Counted from the stretch's first letter, positions 8,971-60,664 are shown. The stretch: DNA of 64,000 bases from Planctomycetota bacterium (GCA_014240375.1 JAAZXB010000005.1:64297-128296); one strand, 5' to 3'. Notes: generated by a model from the letters alone, not told the origin. Numbers and translations: made by a program.

Positions 8971-10332
8971 CTACTTCAAGGCTTTCTGAAGGGACTTCTC
9001 CAGTTGCTCATAACTCTGATAGCCCGCTTCTCGGCCGACCACATTACCTTTGCGGTCGATGAAATAGACCGTGGGTAACCTCTTTAAATGATACTGTTGA
9101 AATCCAACTCCATCGCCCCGGATCAGCATTCTCTGCTGTAACTGGTTCTCCTGAACGAACTCCCGGATGCGGGTCCGGCCGTCATTGTCAGCATTTATTG
9201 CCAATACCTCGACATTTTTGCTCCTGAAGTCCTTCTGGATCTTGCTGAGGTGCGGAGACTCCGCACGACAGGCACCTCACGAATAACCCCAGAACGCCAC
9301 CATCAAGGTCTTCCCCTGGAAATCGGACAGGTTCACCATCTTCCCGTCGAGACCCTCAAGGGAGAAGTCGGGGGCTGGCTTCCCCATCATCTTCTTTGCT
9401 CGAACATCTGGATCGAGCGGTTGGGACGCGATCTTTTTGCTCGATTTGAGCAGAGAAGCGACCTCCTCCACGACTTCAGCCAGGGGGCCCTTCTTGTGGT
9501 CCTTCTGTCCCTTCTCGAACATCTTCTCCGCCATCTCGACCGCCGCCAGCGACATCCCCTTGCGCAGGACTCTCACCACCGGGGCGAGGAATTCATAGGC
9601 CTCTTCGACCTGCTGCGATTCCTCCTCCTCGATCAGTCCCGCTTCCAGTCTCTCGACTCGCAAGGTGCGCTCCTCGGAGGTGGCGTTCTCTTCATCGCCA
9701 CGCAGCAAGGTGGCTGCCCATTCCGCTCGCTTCAGCGATCCGCCGCCACTCAGGTACAATGTTTCCTTGAACGCACTCAGGCGCAACGCTCTGGCGCCTC
9801 CGCGGATCTGGATCTGGCCCCCGGCCAGCAGGCCCGTCAGGATCAGTTGCCCATCGTCGTCGATCGCTTCGGTTCGTTCGACCGAGATCTGCCTTCTCAA
9901 TCCGACCGGGGTGCCATCGGCCCAGCCCAGCCCAGCTCCCTCGGATCCCGCCCCGTGGACCGAGAGCAACATCTCCATCACTGCAGGGGAGAGGGGATCG
10001 AACAGTTCCGGTCTCGGTTTGCCGGAGCCGCGGATCATCATCGAACCGATGGGGAATCCGCCCGGATAGGTGCCATTGGAAGCGGTCGCACGCCAGACCC
10101 AGCGGTTTCCACCGGGTGCTGGGATCTGGAAGATGGTGACCTCGAATTCGAGGACCTCTTCTCCCCGGGTTCTCTCGACCTTCCAGACCGCTTTCGCCGA
10201 AGGATTCTGTTCCTCTTCATCATTGCCAGCCTGGGCCGGAAGGGAGGTGGGTTGGAGCAGAGACAGCATCAGGGATGCGAGTAACACGCTACCCAGATGA
10301 GTCTTGAGTCGATCAATTGTCATACAGATCAC
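8971..10332 (-). CDS. Secreted TlpA-like thiol:disulfide oxidoreductase selenoprotein candidate. In-frame UGA (9277..9279) gives a UxxC motif (FWGYS-U-GAC-RAE).
   Basis: ORFs 9277..10332 and 8971..9204 are in the same frame, separated only by a TGA. The joined sequence GKPAPDFSLEGLDGKMVNLSDFQGKTLMVAFWGYS[U]GACRAESPHL...VEVLAINADND...PTVYFIDRKGNVV is a complete TlpA domain. The TGA sits exactly at the first Cys of CxxC. Hairpin GTGCGGAG-A-CTCCGCAC at 9250..9266, 11 nt 3' of the UGA on the mRNA. N-terminal signal peptide. Confidence 0.7.
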
Positions 10333-14993: not shown

Positions 14994-15036
14994 CGCATGA
15001 CCTGGATGAACTGAACGACCAACGGAGGAGGGTGTC

Positions 15037-15621
15037 ATCGGTTGGCATGAAAGCCTGAAACAAGCTCAAGAGGAAGCGCAGGTCGATGAACGACCGATCC
15101 TGATCATCCTCGAGGCACCCGGCTGACTCGGTTGCAAGCGCCTGGATACCGTGACGTATCCAGATCCTCACTTCATCGCTGCCGTCGATTCGCTGGTAGC
15201 GCCGATTCGCATCAATATCGCCGATCGTCACGAGGACTTTCGCGATGCGACGGTGATGACCAAGATCCCCTTTTCACCTCGATTCCGCCTCTTCAGTTGC
15301 GACCGTAAGCGGTTACTGCGGGAATGGACCGGTTGGATGCCCACCGCGGAGCTGATCGCCGAGTTCCACATCGCCCGCGGTATCGATCGGCTGGAACGGA
15401 AGGATCCGGCAGCAGCGGCGGATCAGTTCGATTCTGCGCTGGCGGCTGCCGAGGATGGACCGGCCACCGCAGAGATCCTCTACCGCAGGGGGATGGCCGC
15501 CTTCATCGCAGGGAAGTTTGACTGGCAGCCACTGAGGAGAGACTGGAACCGAGTGGTCGAAGAATTTCCAGGCACTCGCTGGGCTCACCACGCATCGGTC
15601 ATCGAGGATGCTCCGCAGTGA
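15037..15621 (+). CDS. Thioredoxin-family selenoprotein candidate. In-frame UGA (15124..15126) gives a UxxC motif (EAPG-U-LGC-KRLD). Paralog of the WCGWC lipoprotein at 33174..34130.
   Basis: The frame from 15010 reads ...EEGVIGWHESLKQAQEEAQVDERPILIILEAPG[TGA]LGCKRLDTVTYPDPHFIAAV.... This aligns residue by residue with KDILINFTGSDWCGWCKKLEGEVF of the 33174 gene, with TGA at the first Cys. Hairpin GGATAC-cgtgac-GTATCC at 15144..15161, 18 nt 3' of the UGA. Start uncertain: strong GGAGGAG Shine-Dalgarno sequence at 15025-31 but no ATG/GTG/TTG before the TGA. ATC at 15037 is the best-spaced candidate. Confidence 0.55.
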
Positions 15622-15637
15622 CCGGTTCGCCAGATCA

Positions 15638-16387
15638 CTACTGAGCAGGGTCGATCTGTGCTTCCGTCGGTTCCTCGGCAAGAGGCTTCCTCGCCACCAT
15701 GATCAACTTGGGACCGAACAGCAACGCCGGACTGAGGATCTCCTTCTCGATGTCTCGGCGCAGCGGCTTCGGGGTCTCGAAGCGACGGTTTCTCCACATC
15801 CGCCGGGTTCCCCACCACACCAGCGGAAACATCAGAGGTGCCAGCAGGATCGAGTTCAGTGAGTATCGGGTCGCTTCGACTCCAACTACATCGAGACCAA
15901 CATGAGTCATGTAGAACCGCAGCTGGAAGGCGTTGATGAGAAAGACATGGCCGTAGTAGGTGTCTTCTCCATGAACCTTGGAGCCACCCCAGTAGCCATG
16001 AGAGTCGGTGACTAACCAGCGCCGAGGGCGCGGATGGCCCGACATCATCGAGTCGAGCCGGGCAGACAGAAACAGGATGTTGGGAGTCGTCACGATGAGG
16101 ACTCCGCCCGGCTTGAGAACCCTGGTCAGTTCGGCCAGTACGGCGACCTGGTTGTCGACATGCTCGATGCCTTCGGAGTGCAGAACACCCTCGAAGGAGT
16201 TGTCTTCATAGGGAAGTGGAGCGGTCATGTCACAGCGGGTGCAGGAAAAACCGTTGGCCCGGGCCCGGTCGGGAAAGAGGTCGGCACACTCCACTTCGAA
16301 GCCTGACTCGACCAGATTTCAGGCGTTGACTCCGTCGCCGGAGGGGACGTCAAGAATCTTGCCGGTATCGATGTACTTGCGAAACAT
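15638..16387 (-). CDS. Class I SAM-dependent methyltransferase interrupted by an in-frame TGA (16319..16321). Either a Sec codon or a disrupted gene.
   Basis: Upstream segment MFRKYIDTGKILDVPSGDGVNA carries motif I (ILDVPSGDG). After the TGA the same frame continues NLVESGFEVECADL... into ORF 15638..16294. That ORF has the post-I and later motifs (LKPGGVLIVTTPN) but no motif I of its own. Confidence 0.45.
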
Positions 16388-16507
16388 CTGGCCGACTTCA
16401 TCACGGATGTGTCCGTCATGTTTGAGGCGCTTCAGCAGAGACAAGTTGGAGATTTCCTTACAGCAGAGTTGTGGAAGGGGACGGTGAGAGGTCGCGACGG
16501 AATGATC

Positions 16508-25291: not shown

Positions 25292-26473
25292 ATGAAGATG
25301 ATTGCTACTCATGCATTTCTCTTGCTGAAGGTGACCATCCTCCTTTGCATCGCGCCGATCCACGGTTCCGCATCGACAGTGGTGATTCTCGACGATCCAG
25401 CTCCCGCGGTGGTTACCAAGGCACAGGAGACTGCCGCACGCAATGCGCTGGACAAGATGCAGAAGCGGATGGATGAGGCGTGGACCGAGTACCTGGCCCC
25501 GCTGCGAGAAGCGAAGACTGCCGAGGAACGAGATGCCATCGAATTGGATCCAGAAAAGGATCCGGGTGTGATGTTCCTGCCTGAATTGTTCAAGTTCAGC
25601 AGTGACCATCCGGGGACTGCTGCGTGTCTCGAAGCTCTTTCTCAGGTGATCTCGATGGCCTCGCGAGATGAAAAGAACCGCTGGATGCTCAAGCAGGTGG
25701 TCGATCGGATCATCCTCGAATACATCGAGCATGAAGAACTCAAGGATCTGGTGCGCTTTGGTCATTACAACCCACCTTCTCCAGAAAACTTGTCATTGCT
25801 GAGAGCGGCTGCCGACCGATCTCCTCACCGAACCGTTCAGGGCTCTGCTTTCTATGCTCTTGGAAAACTGCTCGGATCTTCAGAAGAGACGAGAGCCGAG
25901 GGGAAGCAACTCCTCCAACGGGTCCAGAAGGAGTATGCGGATGTGCCATTTTTTCGGGAGACCACCTATGGCGAGAAGGTCGCAGGAGATCTGTTTGAAC
26001 TGGATCATCTGCAGGTCGGGCAAGTGGCGCCAGAGATCATCGGTACCGGACTCGATGGGGATCTGATGCAACTCTCCGCGTTTCGCGGCAAGGTGGTACT
26101 GCTCGATTTCTGGGGTGATTGGTGAGGCCCTTGCCGGGCGATGTACCCACACGAGCGGTCGCTCGTGAAGAAACACTCCGCGGATCAATTTGCCATCGTC
26201 GGGGTCAACTCGGAGAATACCATCGAAGCTGCTCGCGAAGCGGTGAAGAAAAACAAGCTGACCTGGAAGAACTTCTACGATGGGGGTGGGGCCAACCCCA
26301 CCTCTGGTCCCATCGCCACTCGCTGGAATGTCAGCGGCTGGCCCACCACCTATCTTCTCGATGAAAATGGCGTGATTCGCTACAAGGATGTCCGAGGTGA
26401 AACTCTCGACGCAGCACTCGAGACTCTGATCGATCAGTGGAAGGCGGCCCGGGAGGCGGAGGCGAAACTCTAG
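25292..26473 (+). CDS. Secreted TlpA-like thiol:disulfide oxidoreductase selenoprotein candidate. In-frame UGA (26123..26125) gives a UxxC motif (FWGDW-U-GPC-RAM).
   Basis: ORFs 25292..26125 and 26141..26473 share a frame across a single TGA. The joined sequence FRGKVVLLDFWGDW[U]GPCRAMYPHERSLVKKHSADQFAIVGVNSE...WPTTYLLDENGVIRYK is a textbook TlpA/ResA domain with TGA at the first Cys. Hairpin ACGAGCG-gt-CGCTCGT at 26151..26166, 26 nt 3' of the UGA. Signal peptide MKMIATHAFLLLKVTILLCIAPIHGSAS. TAG stop. Confidence 0.7.
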
Positions 26474-33173: not shown

Positions 33174-34130
33174 CTAGTGATCGGGTACTCCGTCGCCGTC
33201 GTGATCGTGACCGTCGGTGGCATCATGGTCGATGCCATGGATCGCATCTTCGATCATCTTGCGACCGCGCTCGTTGTCCTTGACCTCCGGGCTCTTCAAC
33301 ATCCGGTTGAGGAACAGCTTGGCGCCATCCTTGTCTCCTTGCTCAGCCAGCCAGCCCTGGCAGAACCACAGTGCATTGAGCACCTCGGGGCCGCCCATTT
33401 CTGAATTGTCCTTGAGGAACTGCACCAGTGTCGGGAAGTCAGGATCCTGGGTATTGAGCAATTTCAACAGCTGTCCACGAGCCCGATGAGAAGCGGCCTT
33501 CTTGACCAGTTCCGGGTTGTCGGACTTCTCCGCCATATCGAGGAACTTACCGAAGGCGGGAAACCCGAGCAGGCCCTGATCCGCCATCACTTCGAATGCG
33601 TCCGGCAGCATATCACCCTGTTGAGCCTCATCTTCGGTGGCGAGCAACGCCTTGATCTTGTCGCCCTTGGCACGCAATTCGACGATGTGCTCGAGGTATT
33701 TTTCTGGCCCGCCCGGCTGATACCCTGTCTTGGCATAGGGGCGCATCTGGTGATCTGCCAGGATGATGGTGGGGAATCCGTCCACTCCCATCTCATCGCG
33801 GCTTTTTCCATTGAGCATTTCATCCACGACCTTGGCCTTCGCCTCTTCGCTGCGAGGGAAGTCGAGGTACAGGTAGATGTACTGCTTACCGGCGGTTTCA
33901 TGGAACGCTGGCAGTGAGAACACCTCGCCCTCGAGTTTCTTGCACCAACCACACCAGTCACTTCCGGTGAAGTTGATGAGGATGTCCTTACCCTCTTTAC
34001 GAGCCATTTCCTTGGCGGCACCGATATCCATCATCCAGGGGAGTCCTACCTCGGCCGCAACAGTCTCGGGTTCGTCACCGAGGGCCAGCGGAGAGCAGGC
34101 CAGGAAAGCCGTCAGAAAAATCATCGACAT
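33174..34130 (-). CDS. Thioredoxin-family lipoprotein (WCGWC active site)
   Basis: GGAGA Shine-Dalgarno sequence then ATG at 34130. Lipobox-like MSMIFLTAFLACSPL. Thioredoxin motif KDILINFTGSDWCGWCKKLEGEVF. Immediately upstream of, and co-oriented with, the polyferredoxin. Confidence 0.7.
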   Translation of the reverse strand: MSMIFLTAFLACSPLALGDEPETVAAEVGLPWMMDIGAAKEMARKEGKDILINFTGSDWCGWCKKLEGEVFSLPAFHETAGKQYIYLYLDFPRSEEAKAKVVDEMLNGKSRDEMGVDGFPTIILADHQMRPYAKTGYQPGGPEKYLEHIVELRAKGDKIKALLATEDEAQQGDMLPDAFEVMADQGLLGFPAFGKFLDMAEKSDNPELVKKAASHRARGQLLKLLNTQDPDFPTLVQFLKDNSEMGGPEVLNALWFCQGWLAEQGDKDGAKLFLNRMLKSPEVKDNERGRKMIEDAIHGIDHDATDGHDHDGDGVPDH

Positions 34131-34396
34131 CGAAAGTCTCCTTGCAGCGGAGCCACCATCGGTGCTCCGGGTAACGGGTCGTGTTGAAGTGGTCAGAATA
34201 CCCGATGGAGAACAGATCCGAAAGACGATGAAGAGCGTTGGAGAGGCGCTGCAGGCCATTTTTAGGGGGAAGGGGGTGACCTCGAGGACCATCTCGCCGA
34301 TGATCTGGCCACCGCAGCCTGCGGTGGCCGCGATCGACGGTTGCCGGCGCAAGATGGTCCACTGCAGGAACGGTTTGGGGCGGGGGGGAGTTCAAG

Positions 34397-39849: not shown

Positions 39850-40979
39850 TGAAGAGTGGTAACCGATGGTGGCTGTGGATACTGACCGGATGGATCGGTT
39901 GGTGCACGACGGTCGAGGGATCCGAGAACAGCGTGGTCATCCGCCCGGTCGCAGTGGTGGCTCCCGACGGTAGCATCTGCGAGCAGATGGCGGTGGTGAT
40001 TCACTCCGATGGGACCATCGCTGCGGTGATCCCGGCGGACCAGGCAGACCCGGCACTGACCACGGTCCACGCTGCGGCGGGATCGGTGCTCACCCCGGGG
40101 CTCCATGACCTGTTTGGAGCCCTCGGTTGTGGCCAGGACGCCTTGCTGGCGGGGACGGTCCTGTTCGATTCTCAACTCGATGCGGCGGCTGCCTTCGATC
40201 CGACCACTGGCGCACTCGAACGGGCTGCACGGCACGGGATTCTATACACCACGGTGGCGGCAGTGCCGAGCGGGATCCGCAATGGCAGCAGTGCCACATT
40301 CCTCTGCAAGAGTGATGCTACGGCTCACCCGGTGGCGGCTGGAAGACCGATGTACGCACTGGCCGATTCGGTCCTGCAGTCATCGAGAGAGCCGACCAGT
40401 CGATCGGCGATGGTCTCGTTGTGGAAGGACTTTATCGTCGAGGGAGCGGGCCAGAACAGGGATCCAGGAGTTCTCTTCTGCCCCGATGCGATCGATTTTC
40501 GCCAGTCCCTCTCTCTGCGCTGGAAATCCTTGCCGGTGCTGGTCCACCAGGGGGACGCACGATCTCCGGTGGAGCGGCTCGCCGGAAAAGGTGCGCTGAT
40601 GGTGGTGGGCCCCTTTCTCGAGGACGGCAATCCGGCAGCGGTCGCGACTGCAGTGCGGGCGGCGCGAACCGGAACTGAACTGGCCTTTCGCGGTGGCTTA
40701 CCCGCCGCTCCTGCAAACCACCTGAGAGGGAGTGCAGCCATCGCCGTGGCGGCTGGACTCGATGGAGATGCGGCGCGTAGAGCCCTCTTCAGCAACCCCG
40801 CGCGGGTGGTGGTGGGCCACGGCATCGGAGTGATCGAGCCGGGGGCTCGTGCCGACCTGGTGCTGTTTTCCGCCGATCCGCTCGATCCGGCTGCCCGGGT
40901 GCTCCAGGTCTGGCGCGGTGGCCAGCAGCTGGGGATGAATACTTTCGACTCGATCCGGGATCTGGGAGGAATTCGATGA
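39849..40979 (+). CDS. Amidohydrolase-fold protein 2 of the array (PGLHDLFGALG in place of the HxH motif)
   Basis: N-terminal beta-sandwich-like segment then TPGLHD. C-terminal GARADLVLFSADPLDPAARVLQVWRGG. Start overlaps the previous stop. Confidence 0.55.
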   Translation: MKSGNRWWLWILTGWIGWCTTVEGSENSVVIRPVAVVAPDGSICEQMAVVIHSDGTIAAVIPADQADPALTTVHAAAGSVLTPGLHDLFGALGCGQDALLAGTVLFDSQLDAAAAFDPTTGALERAARHGILYTTVAAVPSGIRNGSSATFLCKSDATAHPVAAGRPMYALADSVLQSSREPTSRSAMVSLWKDFIVEGAGQNRDPGVLFCPDAIDFRQSLSLRWKSLPVLVHQGDARSPVERLAGKGALMVVGPFLEDGNPAAVATAVRAARTGTELAFRGGLPAAPANHLRGSAAIAVAAGLDGDAARRALFSNPARVVVGHGIGVIEPGARADLVLFSADPLDPAARVLQVWRGGQQLGMNTFDSIRDLGGIR

Positions 40980-42565
40980 AACAGCAACCGATGAATCCGT
41001 CACCGATGATGACTTCTCTGGTGCGATGTACAGTGTGGCTCGCCATCGCATGGGGGTCGGCAATCCTCGCTCCGGCAGCAGTGCTGGCAGCGGCGGGAGA
41101 AGACACGGCCACACCCGCAGAGGTTCTCCGGGATGTGACGATCCGTGCGCAGCGGGCTCATATCGGCGATGGCCGGGTCCTCGAGAATGCTCTGATCCAG
41201 GTCAAGGATGGCATCATCGTGAGTGTCGTGGCCAATGGCACCGCTGCCGAGGGTGTCAACCTGCTGGAAGTTTCCGACATCACTCCGGGATTGATCGATG
41301 CGAACGCCAGGATCGACGTCGCCGATGCGATCTACTTTCCGGGAGAGGATCCGCGTTTGCAAATCCTCCGGGCGATGGGACTCGAAGAGCACTTTCACGG
41401 TGGCGATGTCTGTCCCTGCGGTACTACCTGTCCTGCCATGACTCTTCATGTTGCCGATGAGATGTGTCTGTACTGTGGCTGGCCCGATCACGACCCTCAC
41501 CCACACGATCCGATCGACGAATTGCTCGCTGGATCGCTCGCTGGATCGCTCGGTGGCGACCAGGCTGCAGGTGTCCCGGCGCCCAGTGGAGTCATCAACG
41601 AGCAATCGAGTGAGGTGGTCCCACACTTCGAGGTACTCGATGCCATCGATCAGGGATCCGATGATTTTGATCGCCTGCTCAAAGAGGGAGTGACCACCAT
41701 CTACGTCAGCCCCGATTCCTCGGCGGTGGTCGGTGCGCGAGGATCGCTGATGAAGACTGGTGGCCCACTCGCCTCCAGATATCTCGGTGCCGGAGCGGTG
41801 AAGGGGGTTCTCGGGAGCGACGCCTACCGCTATGGGAGTCGCAATCGCAGTCCCTTCCGTACCAATGTTTCGGTCTACACCAGAAGACCTGATTCTCGCA
41901 TGGGTGTGGCGTGGGTCTTCAGGAAGGCGTTTCACGATGCGCTCCTGAGAGCCAAAGGGGTCACTCCCAGCGGTGCGGATACTTCCAGTCCGAGTGCTTC
42001 CCGTGTTCTTTCGAGTGTGCTGGCGGGGGAGATCCCGTTGCGAATCCAGGCTCGTACCGGTCCCGATATCGAGACGGCATTTCGTCTCTGTGGAGAGTTC
42101 GGTGTCCGCTTCACCCTGGAAGATCCGGTCGAGGCGTGGAAGCGGATCGACCTGCTTTCCAGCAGTGGAGTGGACGTGGTCTTCGGGCCGGTGTTTGACG
42201 TACCCAGCGGCATCCTTGCGGGAACCAACGAGAGCCGCGAATCGAGACTCCACACCTTGCGAGATCTGGTCACTTCCGGAGTCGAGGTGTCGTTGAGCGC
42301 CCAGGATTTGAGGGGTGAAGAGGGTCTTTCCCGTCAGGTGATGCTGGCGATCCGACACGGAGTCGATCCGGCGATGGCGTTGAGACTGGTCACACAAAAC
42401 CCGGCCAAACTGCTCGGGATCGATCAGCAGGTTGGAACGATTGAAACGGGTAAGAGAGCGGATCTGGTGGTGTGGAGTGGAACTCCCTTCTCCTCCCTTT
42501 CGAGAATCGAAAAGGTATTGCATGAGGGAGAGTTTTCCTTTGTCCGAGGTGGAGTCAAAAAATGA
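40976..42565 (+). CDS. Amidohydrolase-fold protein 3 of the array, with a Cys/His-rich insert
   Basis: Signal peptide. TPGLIDANARIDV. Insert CPCGTTCPAMTLHVADEMCLYCGWPDHDPHPHD. C-terminal GKRADLVVWSGTPF. 4-nt overlap with the previous gene. Confidence 0.6.
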   Translation: MKQQPMNPSPMMTSLVRCTVWLAIAWGSAILAPAAVLAAAGEDTATPAEVLRDVTIRAQRAHIGDGRVLENALIQVKDGIIVSVVANGTAAEGVNLLEVSDITPGLIDANARIDVADAIYFPGEDPRLQILRAMGLEEHFHGGDVCPCGTTCPAMTLHVADEMCLYCGWPDHDPHPHDPIDELLAGSLAGSLGGDQAAGVPAPSGVINEQSSEVVPHFEVLDAIDQGSDDFDRLLKEGVTTIYVSPDSSAVVGARGSLMKTGGPLASRYLGAGAVKGVLGSDAYRYGSRNRSPFRTNVSVYTRRPDSRMGVAWVFRKAFHDALLRAKGVTPSGADTSSPSASRVLSSVLAGEIPLRIQARTGPDIETAFRLCGEFGVRFTLEDPVEAWKRIDLLSSSGVDVVFGPVFDVPSGILAGTNESRESRLHTLRDLVTSGVEVSLSAQDLRGEEGLSRQVMLAIRHGVDPAMALRLVTQNPAKLLGIDQQVGTIETGKRADLVVWSGTPFSSLSRIEKVLHEGEFSFVRGGVKK

Positions 42566-44139
42566 TGTCGAGAGTCTCAGGAAGCAAGGAACCGATGTTG
42601 CCTAATATGATGCTGACCCCACGTCCAGTGGTGTCCCTGGTAGCCGCGCTAATACTGCTCTTCAGCACACAAGTCGTACCCGCTGGAGAATCCAAGCTGG
42701 CCTTGACCGGAGGCACGGTGATGACCGTCTCGGGTGAGAGTATCGCGGGTGGAGTGGTTCTCATCGAAGATGGAATCATCACAGCAGTGGGAACTGCCGA
42801 AACGGAGATTCCATATGATGCGATGGAGGTGGACTGTACGGGGATGATCCTGGCACCGGGATTTGTCGATCCGCACAGTTCCGATGGACTCGATATCCCC
42901 AACGAGAATCTTCCTTCCGCTCCCTTCGTCGATGTCTTCGATGCGCTCGATCCTTCTCGTTTCTTCTTCGAGGATTCTCTGCGCAATGGAGTCACCAGCA
43001 TTCATGTCATGCAGGGCAACAACTGCGTGGTCGGCGGCGTCAGCCGGATCGTCCATCCGATTGGGCTCACACCTCATGAGATGTCGAGGCAAGCAGGGGT
43101 GGCACTCAAACTCTCCACCTCACCGCGTCGGGGCTACGGCCGGATGCGTCAACTGGCAGAACTTCGAGAGGTGTTCGAAGAATACGATCGGTGGCGAGAA
43201 AACCTGGCCGAGAGTCGTTACGAGCAAGAAGCGGACAAGGAAGATGACGATGACAGCGATGCACTGCCACCGGAGGAAAGTCGCAGCAAGGGGCAGGAAC
43301 TGATCCGTGACGAGGATCTCGATGACCAGCACCGTCATCTCGCACACTTGATCGACGGTCGACTCGGCGCCTGGATCTACTGCGGGTCTGCCACCGATGT
43401 GGCTCCCGCGCTGGCCCTGGTGGCCGAACGAGACTGGAAAGATCGTGCAGTTCTGGTGCTGGCAGGGGATGCCCATCTGGCGATCGAGGAGATCAAGGAG
43501 GCGGGCATCGATGTGGTTCTCGATTCCGATCTGATCCATCGCAAGAGAGATGCCCTCACCGGGGATGTGGAAGAGACCTTCATCCCCGATGTGTATCGTC
43601 GTGCTGGAGTACGATTTGCCATCCAGCCTTCTCGCTCTGGCGCCATGCCGGAGAGATTCATCGGTTACCAGGCGGCACGACTGGTGCGATCCGGCATGGC
43701 ACCCGCCGCGGCTTTGCGAATCGTCACCTTGGGTGCTGCGGAGATCTGTGGAATCGATGATCGTTACGGTTCGATCGAGGTCGGCAAGATCGGCAACATC
43801 GTGATGTGGACCGGCGATCCGCTCGACCTGAATTCATGGGTACAGAAGGTCTTCGTCGAGGGGATCCTCGCCTATGACCTGGAGAAAGATGCTCGACTCG
43901 AACGTCTTTTCCCTGAGGAACCTGAGCCAGAGGAAGCACCCGCTCCACTCGAGGATGGGGGCACCTCCGAGGATGGCGAGGACGCAAAGCCTGCGGAAGA
44001 GACTCCGGAAAAAACCGCTGGAGAAGCACCCGCCGAGGATGGCGAGCCGCTGGAGGAGAAATCCTCCGAGAAGGGGGAAGCCCCCGCCGACAAGCCGGCG
44101 GATCCGCCCAAGGAATCGTCGGTTGCGGGAGGAGAATAG
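42562..44139 (+). CDS. Amidohydrolase-fold protein 4 of the array, with an acidic C-terminal tail
   Basis: Signal or TM segment at the N-terminus. APGFVDPHSSDGL (a single His). C-terminal GKIGNIVMWTGDPLD, then a Glu/Pro/Ala-rich tail. Confidence 0.6.
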   Translation: MMSRVSGSKEPMLPNMMLTPRPVVSLVAALILLFSTQVVPAGESKLALTGGTVMTVSGESIAGGVVLIEDGIITAVGTAETEIPYDAMEVDCTGMILAPGFVDPHSSDGLDIPNENLPSAPFVDVFDALDPSRFFFEDSLRNGVTSIHVMQGNNCVVGGVSRIVHPIGLTPHEMSRQAGVALKLSTSPRRGYGRMRQLAELREVFEEYDRWRENLAESRYEQEADKEDDDDSDALPPEESRSKGQELIRDEDLDDQHRHLAHLIDGRLGAWIYCGSATDVAPALALVAERDWKDRAVLVLAGDAHLAIEEIKEAGIDVVLDSDLIHRKRDALTGDVEETFIPDVYRRAGVRFAIQPSRSGAMPERFIGYQAARLVRSGMAPAAALRIVTLGAAEICGIDDRYGSIEVGKIGNIVMWTGDPLDLNSWVQKVFVEGILAYDLEKDARLERLFPEEPEPEEAPAPLEDGGTSEDGEDAKPAEETPEKTAGEAPAEDGEPLEEKSSEKGEAPADKPADPPKESSVAGGE

Positions 44140-44140
44140 G

Positions 44141-46876
44141 ATGCGCATTTCTCCGATCTGGCCGGGAATCCTCTGCTTGCTGATGTGGCTACCGGCCGTC
44201 TCACTCGAGGCGGCAGACGGCTTCATCTTGCGGGCGGCTACGATACACACCGGGGTTCGAGTCATCGAAGATGGAGCCATCGTGGTGCGCGATGGAAAGG
44301 TGGTCGAGGCCGGTCGGTGGGAGGATCTGGCGCCGGCACTGGCGACCAGCGACTTGCCGCTGATCCACTGGCCCGACGCCTATGTGACGCCGGGCTGGGT
44401 CGCGGCTTCGAGCAATCTGGTGGCCCCACACCCCTCGCCGGAATCGATTCATGCCGACTTCAGGGCGGCGGATGGGTACGACCGTTATGGCGACCATCGT
44501 CCGCTACTCGAGACCGGAGTGACCACCGCCCATCTGAGTCCAGGAGAGCATCGATTGCTCAGTGGCCAGGGTGCCGTGGTGAAACTGGTCGGCGCTGCGG
44601 ATCAGCGAATCCTCCGGGTCAGTGCCGATCTCTCCCTCTCCTTGACCGATGCCGTCGATGGAGCGAGGCCCTTGCTCAGGATTCCCTTCCCTGCATCCAG
44701 CGATGTGGCCATCACCGCCCCGACTCCCCAGCGACCGAGGAGTCGCATTGGTCGACTCCTGGCGCTCAGTGAAGCGCTGGAGAGGTCGAACCAAGACCCG
44801 GCCATCCATGGAGGGCTAGCGGAAGCGTGGAGTTCTGGATTGCCGGTGCGGGTCGCCGCCAGCAAGGCATCCGAGATCCTCGCAGCGATCTCCTTCCTTC
44901 GTGGGAAAGATCGTGACGGATACATCGTGGGAGGTACCGAGATCGGACAGGTAGCCGCGGCAGTGGCCGCCGCAGGGATTCCACTGGTGCTGCGCATCCA
45001 ACCGGTCGGCGGGGATGTCGGGTTCACCGATCGTGAACCGGTGGAGGGCTTGACCGATTGGCCACAGCTGGGCACCGATACTCTGCTGGCACTGGCACCG
45101 CCGAAGGATGACCTGAGGCAGTTGCGATGGGCGCTGGTGCAGGCGGCTCCTCACATGGAAAGACCCGATGATGCGATCGCCCTGGTCACTCATCATCCGG
45201 CTCGAATCCTTGGAGTCGAGGATCGGGTCGGGAGCCTCGAAGCGGGTGCGGATGCAGACCTGGTGATCTGGAATGAAGGACCGTGGAAAGTCACGGCACA
45301 TCCTCTCGAGGTGATTGCCGACGGGGCGGTGGCCTGGCAACCGCAGACGGAACCGACCACGGTGATTCGTGCGGAGACGATCTGGCTCTCTCCGGAGGAT
45401 CGTATCGACGGCGGTGAGGTTCTGATCGAGCAGGGCAAGATCGCCGCGGTGGGGAGAAGAGTGCCGCATCCACCTCACTCGAGAGTGATCGACGCAGGAT
45501 CGGGGAGTTTTCTCGTGCCCGGTTTCATCGATAGTTACGGACACCTCGGATTACGAGGGGATACGGGTTCCTCCGGCACTGGAGATCGCCTCTACCGTCT
45601 GATCGGTGCATCCGATGAGCCGGAGCACCGTGTGGCGAGATCGGGTGTGACCTCCCAGTTGCTGACCCCGATGAGATTGCAGCGCGGTGCAGCCACTGCG
45701 GTGGTGGTCAAGACATCCGGCAGAACCCGATCGCAGCGAGTGCCACAACCGGTCTCTGTACTGTTACTGGAGGCCAGTGGCCATCCCGATGAAGCGCTTG
45801 GCGGAATCTCGAGACTGATGGACCAGGGCAAGAAATATCTCGAGTCGTGGAAGAAGTACGAGAAGAGTCTCGCCGAATGGAGAAAGAAGAAGGCCGCTGG
45901 AGAAGAGATCGAACAGAAGGAGGAAGAGGGCGAGGAGGTAGTGGTCGAGCAGCAGGGGCCGGATCCCCTCACCGGGGTCTGGGAATTGACCATCTCCGGT
46001 GGACCGATCCCGGAACCAGAGACGGCCAAGATCTCGATCAAACTCGATGGTACGGAGTTCGAGGGCCGAGTCGTCGATCCGATCCCTCCGTTCCCGGTGA
46101 GAGTGGTCGGCACACTCGATGGGACCACCATCGAGGCGACCATCGAGATCGAAGATGGCGTTCTACCTGGAGTGCCGAAAATCAAAGCCGAACTGGAAGG
46201 TGAAGATTCGTTGGTGGGAACCATCTCGCTGATGCAATTCAGCGTAGATGTGGTGGGTACTCGTTCCAGCAAGGAAGCGAAATCGTTCAAGGTGGAACGG
46301 CGCAAGAAACGCGATGAAGATGGACGACCCAACGCTCCCCGCGTCAATCTTGCGCTGGAGCCGGTTCGAAAGGTCCTCGAGGGACAGATTCCGGTGGTGG
46401 TGACTCCCAGTGGACTGGAAGTGGCCACCAAGGTGATCGAGTACTTTTCCGAGAAGAAGATTCCTTTGACCCTCCGGCTGGGTCAGGAGATGCGTCTATA
46501 CCGTGACCTGCTGGCGGAGAAATCTGTATCGGTCATCTTGCCAGCAGAATCGAGTTTTACCATCCAGCGGAAGTCTTTTGCCCCGGGCAATTTCCTGAGT
46601 CGCTCCGGCATCAATGTGGCGTTTCAGAGCCAAGCTTCCGATGGCGCTCGTTCCCTGCAACAGCAGGCGATGCAAGCGGTCGAGCGTGGAATGAGTGCGG
46701 ATGCTGCGTTGCATGCACTGACTGGCGGAGCAGCCCGGGCACTGGGGGCCGCCGATCGGGTGGGCTCGATCGAGAGCGGTCTCGATGCAGACCTGTTGAT
46801 CTGGAATGGACATCCGATGGAGGCGGGAAGTCGCCTTCAAAGGGTCTTCATCCATGGAGAGGAGGTCCCCAGATGA
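44141..46876 (+). CDS. Amidohydrolase-fold protein 5 of the array: two fused amidohydrolase-like modules
   Basis: 911 aa from ATG at 44141. Signal peptide MRISPIWPGILCLLMWLPAVSLEA. Module a ends GADADLVIWNEGPW. Module b begins VPGFIDSYGHLGL and ends GLDADLLIWNGHPMEAGSRLQRVFIHG. Confidence 0.6.
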   Translation: MRISPIWPGILCLLMWLPAVSLEAADGFILRAATIHTGVRVIEDGAIVVRDGKVVEAGRWEDLAPALATSDLPLIHWPDAYVTPGWVAASSNLVAPHPSPESIHADFRAADGYDRYGDHRPLLETGVTTAHLSPGEHRLLSGQGAVVKLVGAADQRILRVSADLSLSLTDAVDGARPLLRIPFPASSDVAITAPTPQRPRSRIGRLLALSEALERSNQDPAIHGGLAEAWSSGLPVRVAASKASEILAAISFLRGKDRDGYIVGGTEIGQVAAAVAAAGIPLVLRIQPVGGDVGFTDREPVEGLTDWPQLGTDTLLALAPPKDDLRQLRWALVQAAPHMERPDDAIALVTHHPARILGVEDRVGSLEAGADADLVIWNEGPWKVTAHPLEVIADGAVAWQPQTEPTTVIRAETIWLSPEDRIDGGEVLIEQGKIAAVGRRVPHPPHSRVIDAGSGSFLVPGFIDSYGHLGLRGDTGSSGTGDRLYRLIGASDEPEHRVARSGVTSQLLTPMRLQRGAATAVVVKTSGRTRSQRVPQPVSVLLLEASGHPDEALGGISRLMDQGKKYLESWKKYEKSLAEWRKKKAAGEEIEQKEEEGEEVVVEQQGPDPLTGVWELTISGGPIPEPETAKISIKLDGTEFEGRVVDPIPPFPVRVVGTLDGTTIEATIEIEDGVLPGVPKIKAELEGEDSLVGTISLMQFSVDVVGTRSSKEAKSFKVERRKKRDEDGRPNAPRVNLALEPVRKVLEGQIPVVVTPSGLEVATKVIEYFSEKKIPLTLRLGQEMRLYRDLLAEKSVSVILPAESSFTIQRKSFAPGNFLSRSGINVAFQSQASDGARSLQQQAMQAVERGMSADAALHALTGGAARALGAADRVGSIESGLDADLLIWNGHPMEAGSRLQRVFIHGEEVPR

Positions 46877-48111
46877 GGACCTGCACCTGGATTATACTGG
46901 CACTATTCATCGTCACCACGGCCGGCGATTTGTTCGCAGCGGCGGAGGTTCACGCTTTCCGTGTGGGCAAGGTCGTCACCATGGATGGCGATGACCGGGT
47001 GATCAACAACGCAATAGTGATCGTCACCGATGGCAAGATCACAGCGGTGGGGCGCTCCCGAGATGTTGAAGTTCCGCCAGGAGCTACTGTCATCGAAAAA
47101 CCCCAGCTGTGGCTGGTTCCGGGGATGGTCGAATGTCATAACCACACCGGTGGTTCCAGTCCCGACCTCCATGATTACATCTACCTGACCAACCCAGGGC
47201 TTCGAACACTCGAGGCGATCGTTCCCGATGGGGTGGAGATGGAACGAGCTCGTGCCGGCGGCGTGACCACTGTGCTGACGATTCCAGGCAGTGGAAACAA
47301 CATGTCAGGATTCGGCACCATCCTCAAGACCGCCGGAACCGGTAGCGTCGAGGAGGCGGTCTTGAAGGCTCCCGGCTCGTTGAAGATCGCCCAGGCGGGG
47401 AACCCCGAGCGATACTTCTATGGGGTGGGGCGATCGTTCATGAACTTCAACACCCGGCAGACGCTGCGCAAGGCGATGGAATACCACAAGGCGCGGACTG
47501 CATGGGAGCAGGGCGAACGGGCGGATGAACCTCCCAAGGATCTGCACTGGGAAGAGTTCAGGGCGCTGTTTCGTCGAGAAACCGTGGCCTCGGTTCATAC
47601 CCAGATCTATCAGGTGCTGATGACCACCGTCAAGATGGTCGCCGGTGAGTTCGGAATTCGCACGGTGCTCGACCACTCCACCTTCGATGCCTGGAAGGTG
47701 GCGCGGCTGGTCAATGAGGATCAGAGTATTTACACCATCAATGGTCCGCGGCAACTTCATTACGACCGGACCCAGCGTCGCATCATGGGCAACGCTGCGA
47801 GGTGGTGGCAGGGAGGCGTTCGCCAGCTCGGGATCAATACCGACTCTCCGGTGGTGCCGCAGGAGGAACTGTTCTACCAGGCATCGATGGCTTGCTACTA
47901 CGGCTGGACTCCTTACGAGGCTCTCAAGGGAGTCACCAGGATTCCAGCAGAAGCCCTGATGATGGATCACCGCCTCGGCAGCATCACAGTGGGACTCGAT
48001 GCCGATTTCTGTCTCTGGACTGGAGACCCCATCGACCCGCGATCATCTTGTGAGATGACGGTGATCGACGGCCAAGTGACGTACGACGCCAACGGGAAGA
48101 GGGTCTTCTGA
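46873..48111 (+). CDS. Amidohydrolase-fold protein 6 of the array. The only member retaining a His-x-His motif (VPGMVECHNHTGG), so possibly the catalytic member.
   Basis: Signal peptide MRTCTWIILALFIVTTAGDLFAAAE. HxH present. C-terminal GLDADFCLWTGDPIDP. 4-nt overlap upstream. Confidence 0.65.
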   Translation: MRTCTWIILALFIVTTAGDLFAAAEVHAFRVGKVVTMDGDDRVINNAIVIVTDGKITAVGRSRDVEVPPGATVIEKPQLWLVPGMVECHNHTGGSSPDLHDYIYLTNPGLRTLEAIVPDGVEMERARAGGVTTVLTIPGSGNNMSGFGTILKTAGTGSVEEAVLKAPGSLKIAQAGNPERYFYGVGRSFMNFNTRQTLRKAMEYHKARTAWEQGERADEPPKDLHWEEFRALFRRETVASVHTQIYQVLMTTVKMVAGEFGIRTVLDHSTFDAWKVARLVNEDQSIYTINGPRQLHYDRTQRRIMGNAARWWQGGVRQLGINTDSPVVPQEELFYQASMACYYGWTPYEALKGVTRIPAEALMMDHRLGSITVGLDADFCLWTGDPIDPRSSCEMTVIDGQVTYDANGKRVF

Positions 48112-49460
48112 TGAAGCGCCGCGACGACTGTCGACCACTGATTCGGTTCTTGCTGTTGGTATTGTTGTGGCAACCACTGGCTCTGTTTGGAGCGTCCGAC
48201 GATGTTCAACGAGTCACGGTGATCCGTGCTTCTCGGGTGATCACTGGCACCGGTGAGGTGTTGGAGCCGGGTGAAGTGGTGATCGATGAGGGCAAGATCA
48301 CGCTGGTGGGCAACCAGCTGGAGTATCCGAAGAATTCCCGCATCATCGATGCTCCAGGCCAGACCTTGATGGCAGGGATGATCCTGGCGAGATCGAGTCA
48401 TGGACTTCAGAGCTTGTCGAAAAACGGAACCAACTGCAACTTGTCGCCGCTCAGGCAACTGAACGAAGAATTGATGCCATGGGAGGACTTTCTCGAGGCG
48501 GGCTTCGTTGCGGCATCTTTGGTTCCCTCAGGGTCGGGATTCCCGGGTCACGCAGTAGTGGTGAAGACGACACCAGACGATTCCGATCGAATCCTCAAGG
48601 CGGCCGCCTATCTCCCTCTCAACGGCAGATCTCCGAGAGGGATCTACACCTCGGTCGGGAAGGGCTTCGATGTGGCTCGCGGCGAGATCGAAAAGGTCAA
48701 GAAGGCGCGAGAGAAGTGGGACCAGGAGCAGGAAGCGGCGAAGAAGAAGGAACAAGAGGAGGCCAAGAAGGATGCTGGAGATGCCGCCGCAGGTGACAAA
48801 AAGAGCGACAAGCCCGCGACGGAAAAAGCAGACGATGGAAAGCCCAAGGAGTTTCAGCCACCAGAGATGAATCCTGCGGTGATCGCACTGGTCAAGATTC
48901 TCGAGGAGAAGGAGGATGCGCTTCCCATCGTATTTTCCGCCCAGACTCCTGGTTTGATCCTGCATCTCGATTCTGCCATCGCGAGTGTCAAGGAGCTGAA
49001 GGATCGAGATCCCCTGTCGATCTTCCAGTTGCCGGAGTCTCGCACCGGTGCATTTCACGAGGTTGTAGAACTTCTCACAGAGCGTAAGGCCACGGTTCTG
49101 GTCCCCCCTGCGCTCAGTGCGTTTCCGGATACTTACTCGAGAATCCACATTCCAGTGGTGCTGGCCAGGGGTGGTTGCACCGTGATCACGCTACCTGCAA
49201 CAGACAATTTTGCGGGAATGAGAGGGGTACCGGCGAAACTTGCCGAGTTGGTTCGCTACGGGCTTTCGCGCGAGGCCGCCCTCGCCTCGGTGACTCTGGA
49301 AGCGGCGCGATTGCTGGGACTCGATGATCGGATGGGAACAATTGAGGAGGGGAAAGAGCCTCACTTCGTTCTGTTCGACGCCGATCCCCTGGAGCCAGGT
49401 GCGCGGGTGATGAAGACCATCATCGCAGGCAAAGTGGTGTGGGATCGAGAGGATCGATGA
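48111..49460 (+). CDS. Amidohydrolase-fold protein 7 of the array, with a K/E-rich insert
   Basis: Signal peptide. APGQTLMAGMILARSSHGL. Insert KKKEQEEAKKDAGDAAAGDKKSDK. C-terminal GKEPHFVLFDADPLEPG. Confidence 0.55.
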   Translation: MKRRDDCRPLIRFLLLVLLWQPLALFGASDDVQRVTVIRASRVITGTGEVLEPGEVVIDEGKITLVGNQLEYPKNSRIIDAPGQTLMAGMILARSSHGLQSLSKNGTNCNLSPLRQLNEELMPWEDFLEAGFVAASLVPSGSGFPGHAVVVKTTPDDSDRILKAAAYLPLNGRSPRGIYTSVGKGFDVARGEIEKVKKAREKWDQEQEAAKKKEQEEAKKDAGDAAAGDKKSDKPATEKADDGKPKEFQPPEMNPAVIALVKILEEKEDALPIVFSAQTPGLILHLDSAIASVKELKDRDPLSIFQLPESRTGAFHEVVELLTERKATVLVPPALSAFPDTYSRIHIPVVLARGGCTVITLPATDNFAGMRGVPAKLAELVRYGLSREAALASVTLEAARLLGLDDRMGTIEEGKEPHFVLFDADPLEPGARVMKTIIAGKVVWDREDR

Positions 49461-60656: not shown

Positions 60657-60664
60657 GGAGAATT

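What the first reader, a model, noticed from the sequence alone, without database searches (positions are those of the whole stretch)
15037..15621. Third UxxC candidate: thioredoxin-family protein whose Sec codon aligns with the first Cys of a WCGWC paralog in the same window, with a non-canonical start
In the frame running from 15010, ...ERPILIILEAPG-[TGA 15124..15126]-LGCKRLDTVTYPDPHFIAAV... aligns position-by-position with KDILINFTGSDWCGWCKKLEGEVF of the lipoprotein thioredoxin at 33174..34130, with TGA in the WC-G-WC first-Cys column.

A 6-bp-arm hairpin (GGAUAC-cgugac-GUAUCC, 15144..15161) follows the UGA.

The annotated ORF (15151..15621, GTG start) begins after the UGA and would lack the active site. 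Upstream there is a strong GGAGGAG Shine-Dalgarno sequence (15025-31) but no ATG/GTG/TTG in frame before the UGA. ATC at 15037 is the best-spaced start, so an unusual initiation codon (or an upstream recoding event) is implied.
Basis: partly seen in the sequence, partly recalled or inferred. Interest (0 to 1): 0.8.

Follow-up and report, generated by a model that had tools for sequence, protein, structure and literature searches.

The report
Misannotated selenoprotein thioredoxin with ATC start
This is a real but fairly ordinary selenocysteine-containing thioredoxin-type gene that gene callers cut short at its UGA codon, and in this organism its normal ATG start has mutated to ATC while the gene stays under selection.

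Summary

- **The gene.** Window 15037..15621 (+) encodes a 194-aa protein with no signal peptide. It has an N-terminal DsbD-gamma/Thioredoxin_7-type domain and a short TPR-like C-terminal domain. Codon 30 is UGA (15124-15126), in a U-L-G-C motif.
- **The UGA is conserved.** It is present in all 23 species-level Planctomycetota MAG loci examined, and in 13 more distant contigs. It aligns with the first Cys of CxxC in 14 of 15 aligned full-length Cys homologues.
- **The hairpin is under RNA-level selection.** An 8-bp stem with a 6-nt loop (15142-15163) starts 15 nt after the UGA. It holds the only four invariant four-fold-degenerate sites of 57 in the gene, and it shows compensatory changes. This is what a bacterial SECIS looks like.
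- **The start codon.** ATC 15037 sits where orthologues have ATG or GTG, 4 nt after GGAGGAGGG. It recurs in independent assemblies and in two further species, whose copies differ by 20 synonymous against 12 non-synonymous changes (p = 4e-6).
- **Annotation.** All database homologues are truncated.
- **Gaps.** Sec machinery could not be checked for this genome, and nothing here is experimental.
- **Novelty.** A new member of a known kind (UxxC thioredoxin-fold selenoproteins). It reaches no curated NCBIfam selenoprotein model.

The parts
15024..15032 (+). Shine-Dalgarno-like run GGAGGAGGG, 4 nt upstream of the start codon
   Evidence: Read directly. The same run precedes ATG in the sister locus L023.
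15037..15039 (+). ATC, the inferred initiation codon. It lies two codons before the conserved Trp, where orthologues have their ATG or GTG start.
   Evidence: There is no in-frame ATG, GTG or TTG between the stop at 15007-15009 and the UGA. ATC is present in 4 independent assemblies of this species, in L012, and in two further species-level loci (L020, L022).
15037..15621 (+). Full coding sequence: 194 codons plus the TGA stop. Encodes a thioredoxin-fold plus TPR-like selenoprotein.
   Evidence: Translation. Pfam PF13899 spans the UGA. Aligned with Sec and Cys forms.
15124..15126 (+). UGA read as selenocysteine (residue 30), the first position of the U-L-G-C redox motif
   Evidence: Conserved in all 23 genome loci and in 13 more distant contigs. 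Aligned with Cys in 14 of 15 aligned Cys-form homologues.
15133..15135 (+). TGC, the resolving Cys33 of the UxxC motif
   Evidence: Invariant column C33, with G32, in alignment A5.
15142..15163 (+). SECIS-like hairpin. Stem CUGGAUAC / GUAUCCAG, loop CGUGAC (15150-15155). The stem starts 15 nt after the UGA.
   Evidence: Fold. Pair counts and compensatory changes. Zero entropy at the four-fold sites of codons +6, +8, +9 and +10 only. The hairpin is decayed in 2 of 3 Cys-form genes.
15151..15153 (+). GTG inside the hairpin loop. This is the spurious start of the called 156-aa ORF.
   Evidence: All database homologues begin at or near this position, and two begin further downstream.
15277..15279 (+). 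CCT, Pro81, the cis-proline position of the thioredoxin fold
   Evidence: Invariant column P81 in A5.
15037..15372 (+). Thioredoxin-fold domain (about residues 1-112), DsbD-gamma / Thioredoxin_7 type
   Evidence: PDB profile search gives cDsbD 4ip1/2fwe at E = 1e-16. Supported by the AF2 model of a Cys form and by Foldseek.
15373..15618 (+). Helical TPR-like C-terminal domain (about residues 113-194)
   Evidence: PDB profile hits to the CpoB/YbgF TPR domain (6g5s, 2xev), E about 1e-9. Pfam TPR_16 is sub-threshold. The AF2 model shows helices here.

Best explanation
Window 15037..15621 is one gene for a 194-residue thiol/selenol-disulfide oxidoreductase. No signal peptide is visible, so it is probably cytoplasmic. 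It has a DsbD-gamma-type thioredoxin domain with the active site Sec30-Leu-Gly-Cys33, and a short TPR-like helical domain that probably binds a partner or substrate.

Codon 30 is UGA. It is probably recoded to selenocysteine by SelB and Sec-tRNA(Sec), recruited by the hairpin at 15142-15163 that begins 15 nt downstream.

In this lineage the ancestral ATG start has mutated to ATC. Translation most likely still begins there, with fMet and at reduced efficiency, helped by the strong Shine-Dalgarno sequence 4 nt upstream.

Shown here: the homology, the conservation of the UGA, RNA-level constraint on the hairpin, the positional equivalence of the ATC to orthologous starts, and purifying selection within the ATC clade. 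Inferred: actual Sec insertion, actual initiation at AUC, and the redox and partner-binding function.
For: **Domain**
- PF13899 scores 30.5 bits against a cut-off of 27, and the match spans the UGA.
- The family profile matches the DsbD C-terminal domain at E = 1e-16, with the CVAC of DsbD aligned opposite U/C-x-G-C.
- The same profile matches the CpoB/YbgF TPR domain at about 1e-9.
- An AF2 model of Cys-form P0114 has pLDDT 92. Its top PDB fold hits are YbbN/CnoX and DsbD-gamma.

**UGA**
- All 21 close database homologues are truncated calls that cover at most 80% of the query.
- TGA is present in every DNA locus examined: L001-L040, L041-L052 except L048 (which lacks that region), L056 and L057.
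- 14 full-length homologues carry CxxC at this position.
- TGA is the ordinary stop of 21 of 33 large ORFs in the window, including this gene, so there is no genome-wide reassignment.
- Two further Redoxin-type genes in the window have an in-frame TGA at the CxxC position.

**Hairpin**
- 97.5% of cells are paired, and the six inner pairs are 100% paired.
- Base-pairing is kept through changes on both sides: A-U to G-C, with D-to-G and TAT-to-TAC changes. Single-side changes to G.U or G-C pairs coincide with P-to-S, P-to-L and Y-to-H replacements.
- Of 57 four-fold-degenerate codon positions across 23 species, only the four inside the hairpin have zero entropy. The mean elsewhere is 1.54 bits.

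**Start**
- ATC is aligned with ATG or GTG in all other lineages.
- ATC is present in independent assemblies L014-L017 and L012, and in species-level loci L020 and L022.
- L020 against L022 gives 20 synonymous and 12 non-synonymous differences, binomial p = 4e-6.
- In E. coli, AUC initiates at roughly 1-2% of the AUG level, with an N-terminal Met (bioRxiv 10.1101/063800).
Against: - No selA, selB, selD or tRNA-Sec is present in the window or in any fetched locus. The rest of the genome could not be searched.
- The hairpin matches no Rfam family.
- The single-sequence folding energy is not unusual (z = -0.87).
- One Cys-form gene (L054) still carries the hairpin, so the hairpin does not cleanly separate Sec forms from Cys forms.
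- The ATC clade is shallow, at about 3-8% nucleotide divergence in the flanking ileS. Recombination with ATG-start lineages occurs inside this very gene, so part of the purifying-selection signal could have been imported.
- The neighbouring methyltransferase carries nonsense and frameshift alleles in this population. Gene decay is therefore happening next door.
- AUC is a poor initiator where it has been measured.
- There is no proteomic, ribosome-profiling or 75Se evidence.
Confidence: 0.8

Rival explanations
1. The family is a genuine selenoprotein, but in the ATC clade the start-codon mutation has effectively silenced the gene. On this reading the window copy is a young, not yet visibly decayed pseudogene.
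For: - No canonical start remains.
- AUC gives only about 0.02-3% of AUG output in E. coli.
- The ATC clade is shallow, and the adjacent methyltransferase shows nonsense and frameshift alleles in the same population.
Against: - Two ATC-start species differ by 20 synonymous against 12 non-synonymous changes (p = 4e-6).
- No stop or frameshift occurs in any of the eight ATC-bearing sequences examined.
- The UGA, the hairpin and the Shine-Dalgarno sequence are intact in all of them.
- The ATC allele is fixed in samples from several studies.
Confidence: 0.12
2. Translation starts at GTG 15151. The upstream similarity is a decayed remnant, and the functional product is the 156-aa protein as annotated.
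For: - Gene callers choose this ORF in every database entry.
- GTG 15151 is a canonical start codon.
Against: - The 29 upstream codons are conserved at the protein level in all lineages. Each has its own ATG or GTG start, preceded in the close relatives checked by a purine-rich Shine-Dalgarno-like run.
- The 156-aa product would lack strand 1, helix 1 and the active site of the thioredoxin fold.
- GTG 15151 lies in the loop of a conserved hairpin. In other lineages the called start shifts to different codons.
Confidence: 0.04
3. The UGA is decoded by something other than selenocysteine. Either near-cognate read-through inserts Trp or Cys, or termination yields a separate 29-aa peptide.
For: Sec machinery was not demonstrated for this genome.
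Against: - The UGA sits exactly at the nucleophilic Cys of CxxC in Cys-form homologues.
- A hairpin under RNA-level selection lies at the SECIS distance.
- UGA is retained over dS > 1, whereas leaky read-through would favour replacement by TGC or TGG.
- Two more UxxC genes lie in the same window.
- Complete Sec-insertion gene sets have been reported in some Planctomycetes (PMC4807772).
Confidence: 0.03
4. The ATC and/or the TGA is an assembly or sequencing error.
For: Both are single-base differences from ATG and TGC/TGT.
Against: The same bases appear in independent assemblies from ENA, NCBI, Logan and JGI, and in many species.
Confidence: 0.01

Closest known systems
[quoted passage not shown]
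   Same: - Thioredoxin fold of the DsbD-gamma type.
- Sec replaces the first Cys of CxxC.
- A hairpin lies directly downstream of the UGA.
- Cys-form homologues exist.
- Marine metagenomic origin.
   Different: - I could not obtain the sequences of those families, so identity with them is untested.
- This family carries an added TPR-like domain.
- It has no signal peptide or membrane part.
- Among the best 150 of the 50%-identity cluster representatives found, 62 are truncated calls that look like Sec forms and 17 are full-length Cys or Ser forms. In the GOS table most families show the opposite ratio.
C-terminal (gamma) domain of DsbD (PDB 4ip1, 2fwe, 1uc7)
   Same: Best sequence-profile and domain-level structural match. 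The active-site CxxC aligns with U/CxGC, and the cis-Pro is conserved.
   Different: DsbD is a three-domain inner-membrane electron transporter with a periplasmic gamma domain. This protein is 194 aa, soluble, has no leader, and is fused to TPR-like helices.
CnoX/YbbN chaperedoxins (PDB 3qou; PMC6282202)
   Same: N-terminal thioredoxin domain plus C-terminal TPR domain. It is the top whole-chain Foldseek hit (E = 1e-7). Caulobacter CnoX has a working CxxC and acts as a reductase.
   Different: - No sequence-level membership.
- The helical domain is about half as long.
- Domain orientation differs (TM 0.40, rmsd about 12 A).
- CnoX is not known as a selenoprotein, and no paper in the held library describes a Sec-containing CnoX/YbbN.
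NCBIfam selenoprotein models: VPGUxxT thioredoxin-like types 1 and 2 (NF041382/3), TsoB (NF045694), Trx7/PDZ (NF041199)
   Same: Distant Thioredoxin_7-like similarity around the active site. The 'PGU' context resembles VPGU.
   Different: Scores are 25, 22 and 16.5 bits against cut-offs of 275, 805 and 300. The motif here is UxxC, not UxxT. The architecture is different.
Near-cognate (AUU/AUC/AUA) initiation in bacteria, measured for all 64 codons in E. coli (bioRxiv 10.1101/063800)
   Same: A single-base variant of AUG behind a strong Shine-Dalgarno sequence. AUC is documented to initiate with Met at a low level.
   Different: Here the codon is a recent derived state in a shallow clade, not an anciently conserved regulatory feature. 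No measurement exists for Planctomycetota.

Membership tests
Bacterial selenoprotein gene (UGA-Sec with downstream SECIS) | In-frame UGA conserved among orthologues, flanked by conserved coding sequence on both sides | tested here: met
   TGA is present in all 23 species-level loci, in 11 soil/other contigs and in 2 divergent representatives.
Bacterial selenoprotein gene (UGA-Sec with downstream SECIS) | UGA aligns with a (redox-active) Cys in homologues | tested here: met
   Column C30 of A5 is Cys in 14 of 15 full-length homologues. It is the first Cys of CxxC.
Bacterial selenoprotein gene (UGA-Sec with downstream SECIS) | Stem-loop shortly downstream of the UGA, with a G in the apical loop. 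The criterion of an apical loop roughly 16-37 nt from the UGA is recalled from bSECISearch and was not re-read here. | tested here: met
   An 8-bp stem starts 15 nt after the UGA. The loop CGUGAC starts 23 nt after it. Supported by covariation and by zero-entropy synonymous sites.
Bacterial selenoprotein gene (UGA-Sec with downstream SECIS) | selA, selB, selD and tRNA-Sec present in the same genome | not testable with these tools
   None is present in the 64-kb window or in the fetched flanks. Indirect support: three UxxC/TGA genes in the window, and published Sec machinery in some Planctomycetes (PMC4807772).
Bacterial selenoprotein gene (UGA-Sec with downstream SECIS) | Match to a curated Rfam SECIS family | tested here: not met
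   No hit at gathering score or at E <= 10. If Rfam's bacterial SECIS models are lineage- or gene-specific, as I recall without checking here, this result weighs little.
Thioredoxin_7 (PF13899) / DsbD-gamma-like thioredoxin fold | Pfam score above the gathering cut-off | tested here: met
   30.5 bits against 27, residues 3-68.
Thioredoxin_7 (PF13899) / DsbD-gamma-like thioredoxin fold | CxxC at the start of helix 1, plus a cis-Pro loop | tested here: met
   U30-x-G32-C33 and P81 are conserved. In the AF2 model of Cys-form P0114 the motif sits at the strand 1 to helix boundary.
DsbD (full-length electron transporter) | Alpha domain, transmembrane beta domain and gamma domain, with periplasmic export | tested here: not met
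   The protein is 194 aa and starts at the thioredoxin fold with no hydrophobic leader. Only the gamma-like domain is present.
CnoX/YbbN chaperedoxin | Thioredoxin domain fused to a C-terminal TPR domain | tested here: met
   Foldseek top hit is 3qou (E = 1e-7). The TPR part hits CpoB/YbgF by sequence profile.
CnoX/YbbN chaperedoxin | Sequence-level family membership | tested here: not met
   No Pfam or NCBIfam YbbN/CnoX hit. 15% identity, TM 0.40.
Curated NCBIfam selenoprotein families | Score at or above the model's cut-off | tested here: not met
   The best is NF041383 at 25.1 bits against 275.
Non-AUG (AUC) initiation | The codon occupies the position of the canonical start in orthologues, with a Shine-Dalgarno sequence at working distance and no alternative in-frame start | tested here: met
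Non-AUG (AUC) initiation | The gene stays under purifying selection after the change | tested here: met
   L020 against L022: Sd 20, Nd 12, p = 4e-6. Caveat: recombination occurs within this gene.
Non-AUG (AUC) initiation | Experimentally mapped N-terminus or initiation site | not testable with these tools
   No proteomic or ribosome-profiling data are available.

The most novel reading that the evidence does not exclude
This may be an uncatalogued selenoprotein family: a soluble 'mini-chaperedoxin' combining a DsbD-gamma-type thioredoxin domain with a short TPR domain.

- Sec forms appear to outnumber Cys forms by about 3.6 to 1 among the best 150 of the 50%-identity cluster representatives found.
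- The SECIS is almost sequence-invariant (loop CGUGAC) from marine Planctomycetota to soil metagenome contigs.
- In one marine clade the family is expressed from a fixed AUC start codon. That codon could act as a selected throttle on initiation, keeping ribosome traffic low enough for efficient Sec insertion only 29 codons downstream.
Probability: 0.2. Interest if true: 0.55.

Novelty: new member of a known kind. Interest (0 to 1): 0.4.

Why it matters
**Annotation.** Every public protein entry I found for the Sec-form genes is a truncated call without the active site. This covers the 21 close homologues, and 62 of the 150 best-scoring 50%-identity cluster representatives look like the same miscall. 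Functional and selenoproteome surveys will therefore miss the family. The window carries three such UxxC genes, which suggests a selenoprotein-rich marine Planctomycetota lineage.

**Biology.**
- It adds a thioredoxin-plus-TPR architecture to the set of Sec-using oxidoreductases.
- It offers a clean natural example of RNA-level constraint. Synonymous sites are frozen, and amino acids change in order to keep base pairs.
- It provides a natural ATG-to-ATC start-codon substitution, with a gene that remains under selection afterwards. That is a convenient test case for near-cognate initiation outside model organisms.

None of this overturns current understanding.

Tried and rejected
- **Rfam scans.** Scans at gathering score over the whole window and at E <= 10 over 15090-15210 gave no SECIS or other meaningful family.
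- **Single-sequence folding.** It is not significant (z = -0.87). Only comparative data carry the hairpin.
- **Small hairpin around the UGA.** A small hairpin with the UGA in its loop appears in the MFE fold. I dropped it because, by eye, third-position variation of the Pro and Leu codons breaks it in other lineages. I did not count this formally.
- **Sec machinery.** No tRNA in the window, only a tRNA-Ser in L040, and no SelA, SelB or SelD domains among 30 large ORFs. A targeted search of the same MAG was not possible.
- **Metagenome scan with the 24-sequence distant alignment.** It failed for lack of a conserved stretch. A trimmed 5-sequence alignment worked.
- **Structure prediction of the window protein.** A Cys-form relative was modelled instead.
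- **Read-through or frameshift from ileS.** Rejected. The frames differ, two in-frame stops intervene, and orthologues behind unrelated upstream genes have their own ATG or GTG.
- **Genome-wide UGA reassignment.** Rejected, since 21 of 33 large ORFs end in TGA.
- **The in-frame TGA in the neighbouring methyltransferase as a fourth Sec site.** Rejected. Relatives have Ser, Lys or Arg codons there.
- **Literature.** No paper links PF13899 to selenocysteine, and no paper describes a Sec-containing CnoX/YbbN.

Full report
**1. What is in the sequence**

The frame of the called ORF 15151..15621 stays open upstream through a single TGA at 15124-15126, back to an in-frame stop at 15007-15009. Read through, it gives ...GVIGWHESLKQAQEEAQVDERPILIILEAPG-U-LGCKRLDTVTYPDPHF....

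- No in-frame ATG, GTG or TTG precedes the TGA.
- ATC lies at 15037-15039, 4 nt after GGAGGAGGG (15024-15032).
It extends to 8 bp: CUGGAUAC, loop CGUGAC, GUAUCCAG, at 15142-15163.
- The GTG that starts the called ORF sits inside its loop.
- The comparison protein is on the minus strand (33174..34352). It is only a distant relative: 29% identity over 45 aa, E = 0.016, with Sec opposite the first Cys of WCGWC.

**2. The upstream extension is coding and belongs to the protein**

With Cys substituted for the TGA, the 194-aa protein passes Pfam Thioredoxin_7 (30.5 bits against 27), and the match runs across the TGA.

A search of 5.8 billion proteins found 21 homologues. All are about 114-158 aa and cover at most 80% of the query, which means they were called from after the TGA.

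I fetched their DNA and scanned one genome per species. Every one of the 23 species-level loci is a marine MAG, most of them named Planctomycetota. Every one has TGA at this codon within (E/H/S)APG-TGA-LGC(K/A)R(L/M)(D/G)(T/A)VTYPD. This includes L040, at 36% identity. Each also has about 29 conserved codons upstream. In two loci the gene caller had even annotated the N-terminal piece as a separate 29-aa gene.

**3. The wider family contains Cys forms**

A profile search of 1.84 billion cluster representatives gave 426 hits. Among the best 150:

| Class | Count |
|---|---|
| Truncated calls beginning M(D/G)(A/T)VTYP, candidate Sec forms | 62 |
| Full-length, about 186-215 aa (14 CxxC, 2 CxxS, 1 SxxC) | 17 |
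| Long multi-TPR proteins matching only the C-terminal part | 40 |
| Fragments or unclassified | 28 |

I checked the DNA of distant truncated-type genes: 11 soil or rhizosphere contigs, L041-L052 except L048, fetched with a query alignment built from five truncated representatives, plus two divergent representatives directly (L056, L057). The in-frame TGA was present every time.

In the joint alignment the Sec column is Cys in 14 of the 15 Cys-form sequences. G32, C33 and the cis-Pro P81 are invariant.

**4. The hairpin is under selection as RNA**

- Across 20 distinct sequences, 97.5% of cells pair, and the six inner pairs always pair.
- Position 5 changes from A-U to G-C in L033, in L040 and in all soil forms (GAT to GGT, meaning Asp to Gly, together with TAT to TAC). 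L035 carries a G.U intermediate.
- L057 turns the G.U pair into G-C through a Tyr-to-His change.
- L012 and L019 keep pairing through G.U pairs while changing Pro to Ser or Leu.
- Of 57 four-fold-degenerate codon positions compared across 23 species, the only four with zero entropy are codons +6, +8, +9 and +10 after the UGA. These lie in the hairpin. The mean elsewhere is 1.54 bits, and none of the 52 outside sites is invariant.
- In three Cys-form genes the hairpin is intact once, partly broken once and lost once.
- The stem begins 15 nt after the UGA, and the loop begins 23 nt after it and contains GU. From my recollection of the bSECISearch model, this fits a bacterial SECIS.
- It matches no Rfam family.

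**5. UGA is not reassigned, and the organism has other such genes**

- TGA ends 21 of 33 large ORFs in the window, including this one.
- Two further genes carry an in-frame TGA at the CxxC position of a Redoxin/AhpC-TSA domain that spans the TGA:
  - + strand, TGA at 26123, in ..FWGDW-U-GPC..
  - - strand, TGA at 9277-9279, in ..FWGYS-U-GAC..
- As a negative control, the TGA at 16319-16321 in the neighbouring methyltransferase is Ser, Lys or Arg in relatives. It is a plain nonsense allele.
- Sec machinery genes and tRNA-Sec are not in the window or in the fetched flanks. I could not search the rest of the genome.
- Some Planctomycetes are reported to have complete Sec-insertion gene sets (PMC4807772).

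**6. The start codon**

In all other lineages the gene starts with ATG or GTG two codons before the conserved Trp, or three codons before it in L031 and L032: M-N-W, M-S-W, M-D-W, V-E-W, V-D-W. In the window the same codon is ATC (I-G-W). The sister locus L023 reads GGAGGAGGGTGGA-ATG-GGT-TGG.

- ATC is not an error. It recurs in four independent assemblies of the same species, including NCBI MAG GCA_028825125.1. It also recurs in L012 and in two other species-level MAGs, L020 (DUAN01000039) and L022 (JABHOG010000051).
- These genomes are close: the ileS flank is about 92-98% identical. The change is therefore recent and probably arose once.
- L020 and L022 differ by 20 synonymous and 12 non-synonymous substitutions. 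Neutrality predicts 76% non-synonymous, giving p = 4e-6.
- dN/dS between the window and these two is about 0.09-0.11.
- No copy has a frameshift or an extra stop.
- In E. coli, AUC supports initiation with Met at about 1-2% of the AUG level (0.02-3% depending on construct) (bioRxiv 10.1101/063800).

I conclude that the gene is still expressed from AUC, probably at a reduced level. A minority possibility is that it has been silenced and has not yet decayed.

One caveat is that the window copy is a recombinant. Up to about 15200 it matches L020 and L022 at about 92-98%. From about 15210 to 16050 it matches the ATG-start lineage L018/L019 at 88-97%. Imported sequence therefore contributes to some of the comparisons.

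**7. What the protein is**

- The family profile matches the C-terminal thioredoxin domain of DsbD (4ip1, 2fwe, 1uc7; E = 1e-16), with the active sites aligned. Its C-terminal 80 residues match the TPR domain of CpoB/YbgF (E about 1e-9).
- An AlphaFold model of Cys-form P0114 is confident (pLDDT 92.3). It shows a thioredoxin fold followed by a helical bundle.
- Its best whole-chain PDB match is E. coli YbbN/CnoX, a thioredoxin-TPR chaperedoxin. The best single-domain matches are DsbD-gamma structures.
- The protein starts directly with the thioredoxin fold and has no leader, so it is most likely cytoplasmic.
- The likely function is a Sec-dependent thiol-disulfide oxidoreductase whose TPR-like domain selects a partner or substrate. 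This is inference from homology only.

**8. Relation to what is known**

UxxC thioredoxin-fold selenoproteins are among the commonest marine selenoproteins. The GOS survey already lists a DsbD-gamma-type 'Trx-like 2' class (PMC2398784). The 2026 review table lists many thioredoxin-like families (PMC13188914).

None of the NCBIfam selenoprotein models reaches its cut-off on this protein. The best is 25 bits against 275.

The kind is therefore known. Whether this particular thioredoxin-TPR family is already catalogued could not be settled.

**9. Verdict**

- The finding is real and was correctly interpreted.
- It is a misannotated selenoprotein gene of a familiar kind, with a well-supported SECIS.
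- The less common feature is a recently fixed ATC start codon at the orthologous start position.
- Confidence is about 0.85 that it is a selenoprotein gene and about 0.7 that AUC is the working start.
- Interest is moderate.

Noticed in passing
window 25292..26473 (+), TGA at 26123-26125: A second candidate selenoprotein. It is a Redoxin/AhpC-TSA-type protein with ..VVLLDFWGDW-U-GPCRAMYP... The called ORF ends at the TGA, but the domain (PF08534, 65 bits) spans it and continues for 115 codons.
   Followed up: partly
window 8971..10332 (-), TGA at 9277-9279: A third candidate selenoprotein. It is an AhpC/TSA-type protein with ..MVAFWGYS-U-GACRAESP... (PF00578, 85 bits across the TGA). A GUGCGGAG-UCU-CCGCAC hairpin starts about 13 nt after the UGA. 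Relatives are called as 348-aa truncated proteins.
   Followed up: partly
window 16319-16321 (-), within methyltransferase 15638..16444: An in-frame TGA in the neighbouring SAM-methyltransferase, also present in L017. Other assemblies have TCA, AAA or CGA there, and L015 has a frameshift. This is a nonsense polymorphism at a variable residue, not a Sec codon. The gene seems to be decaying in this population.
   Followed up: yes
window about 15200 and about 16050: A recombination mosaic. Upstream of about 15200 the window is about 92-98% identical to L020/L022. Between about 15210 and 16050 it is 88-97% identical to L018/L019, then reverts. One breakpoint lies just after the highly conserved UGA-SECIS stretch, inside the gene.
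   Followed up: partly
L054 (Cys-form homologue P0057), about 40 nt after its TGT: A Cys-form gene still carries the intact GGGUAC-CGUGAC-GUAUCC hairpin. This suggests a recent Sec-to-Cys conversion with a fossil SECIS.
   Followed up: no
window 40976..50851 (+): A tandem array of six amidohydrolase-family (PF01979) paralogues in one orientation, several with overlapping stop and start codons.
   Followed up: no
window 33174..34352 (-): A Thioredoxin_2/Thioredoxin_7 protein with WCGWC (an ordinary Cys form) and a long C-terminal extension ending in a His/Asp-rich tail. The listed TTG start is probably too far upstream. A hydrophobic leader-like segment begins near residue 75.
   Followed up: no
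window 59130..63514 (+): A 4Fe-4S/NrfD fusion protein followed by a molybdopterin oxidoreductase (PF00384). I did not check the latter for a Sec codon.
   Followed up: no
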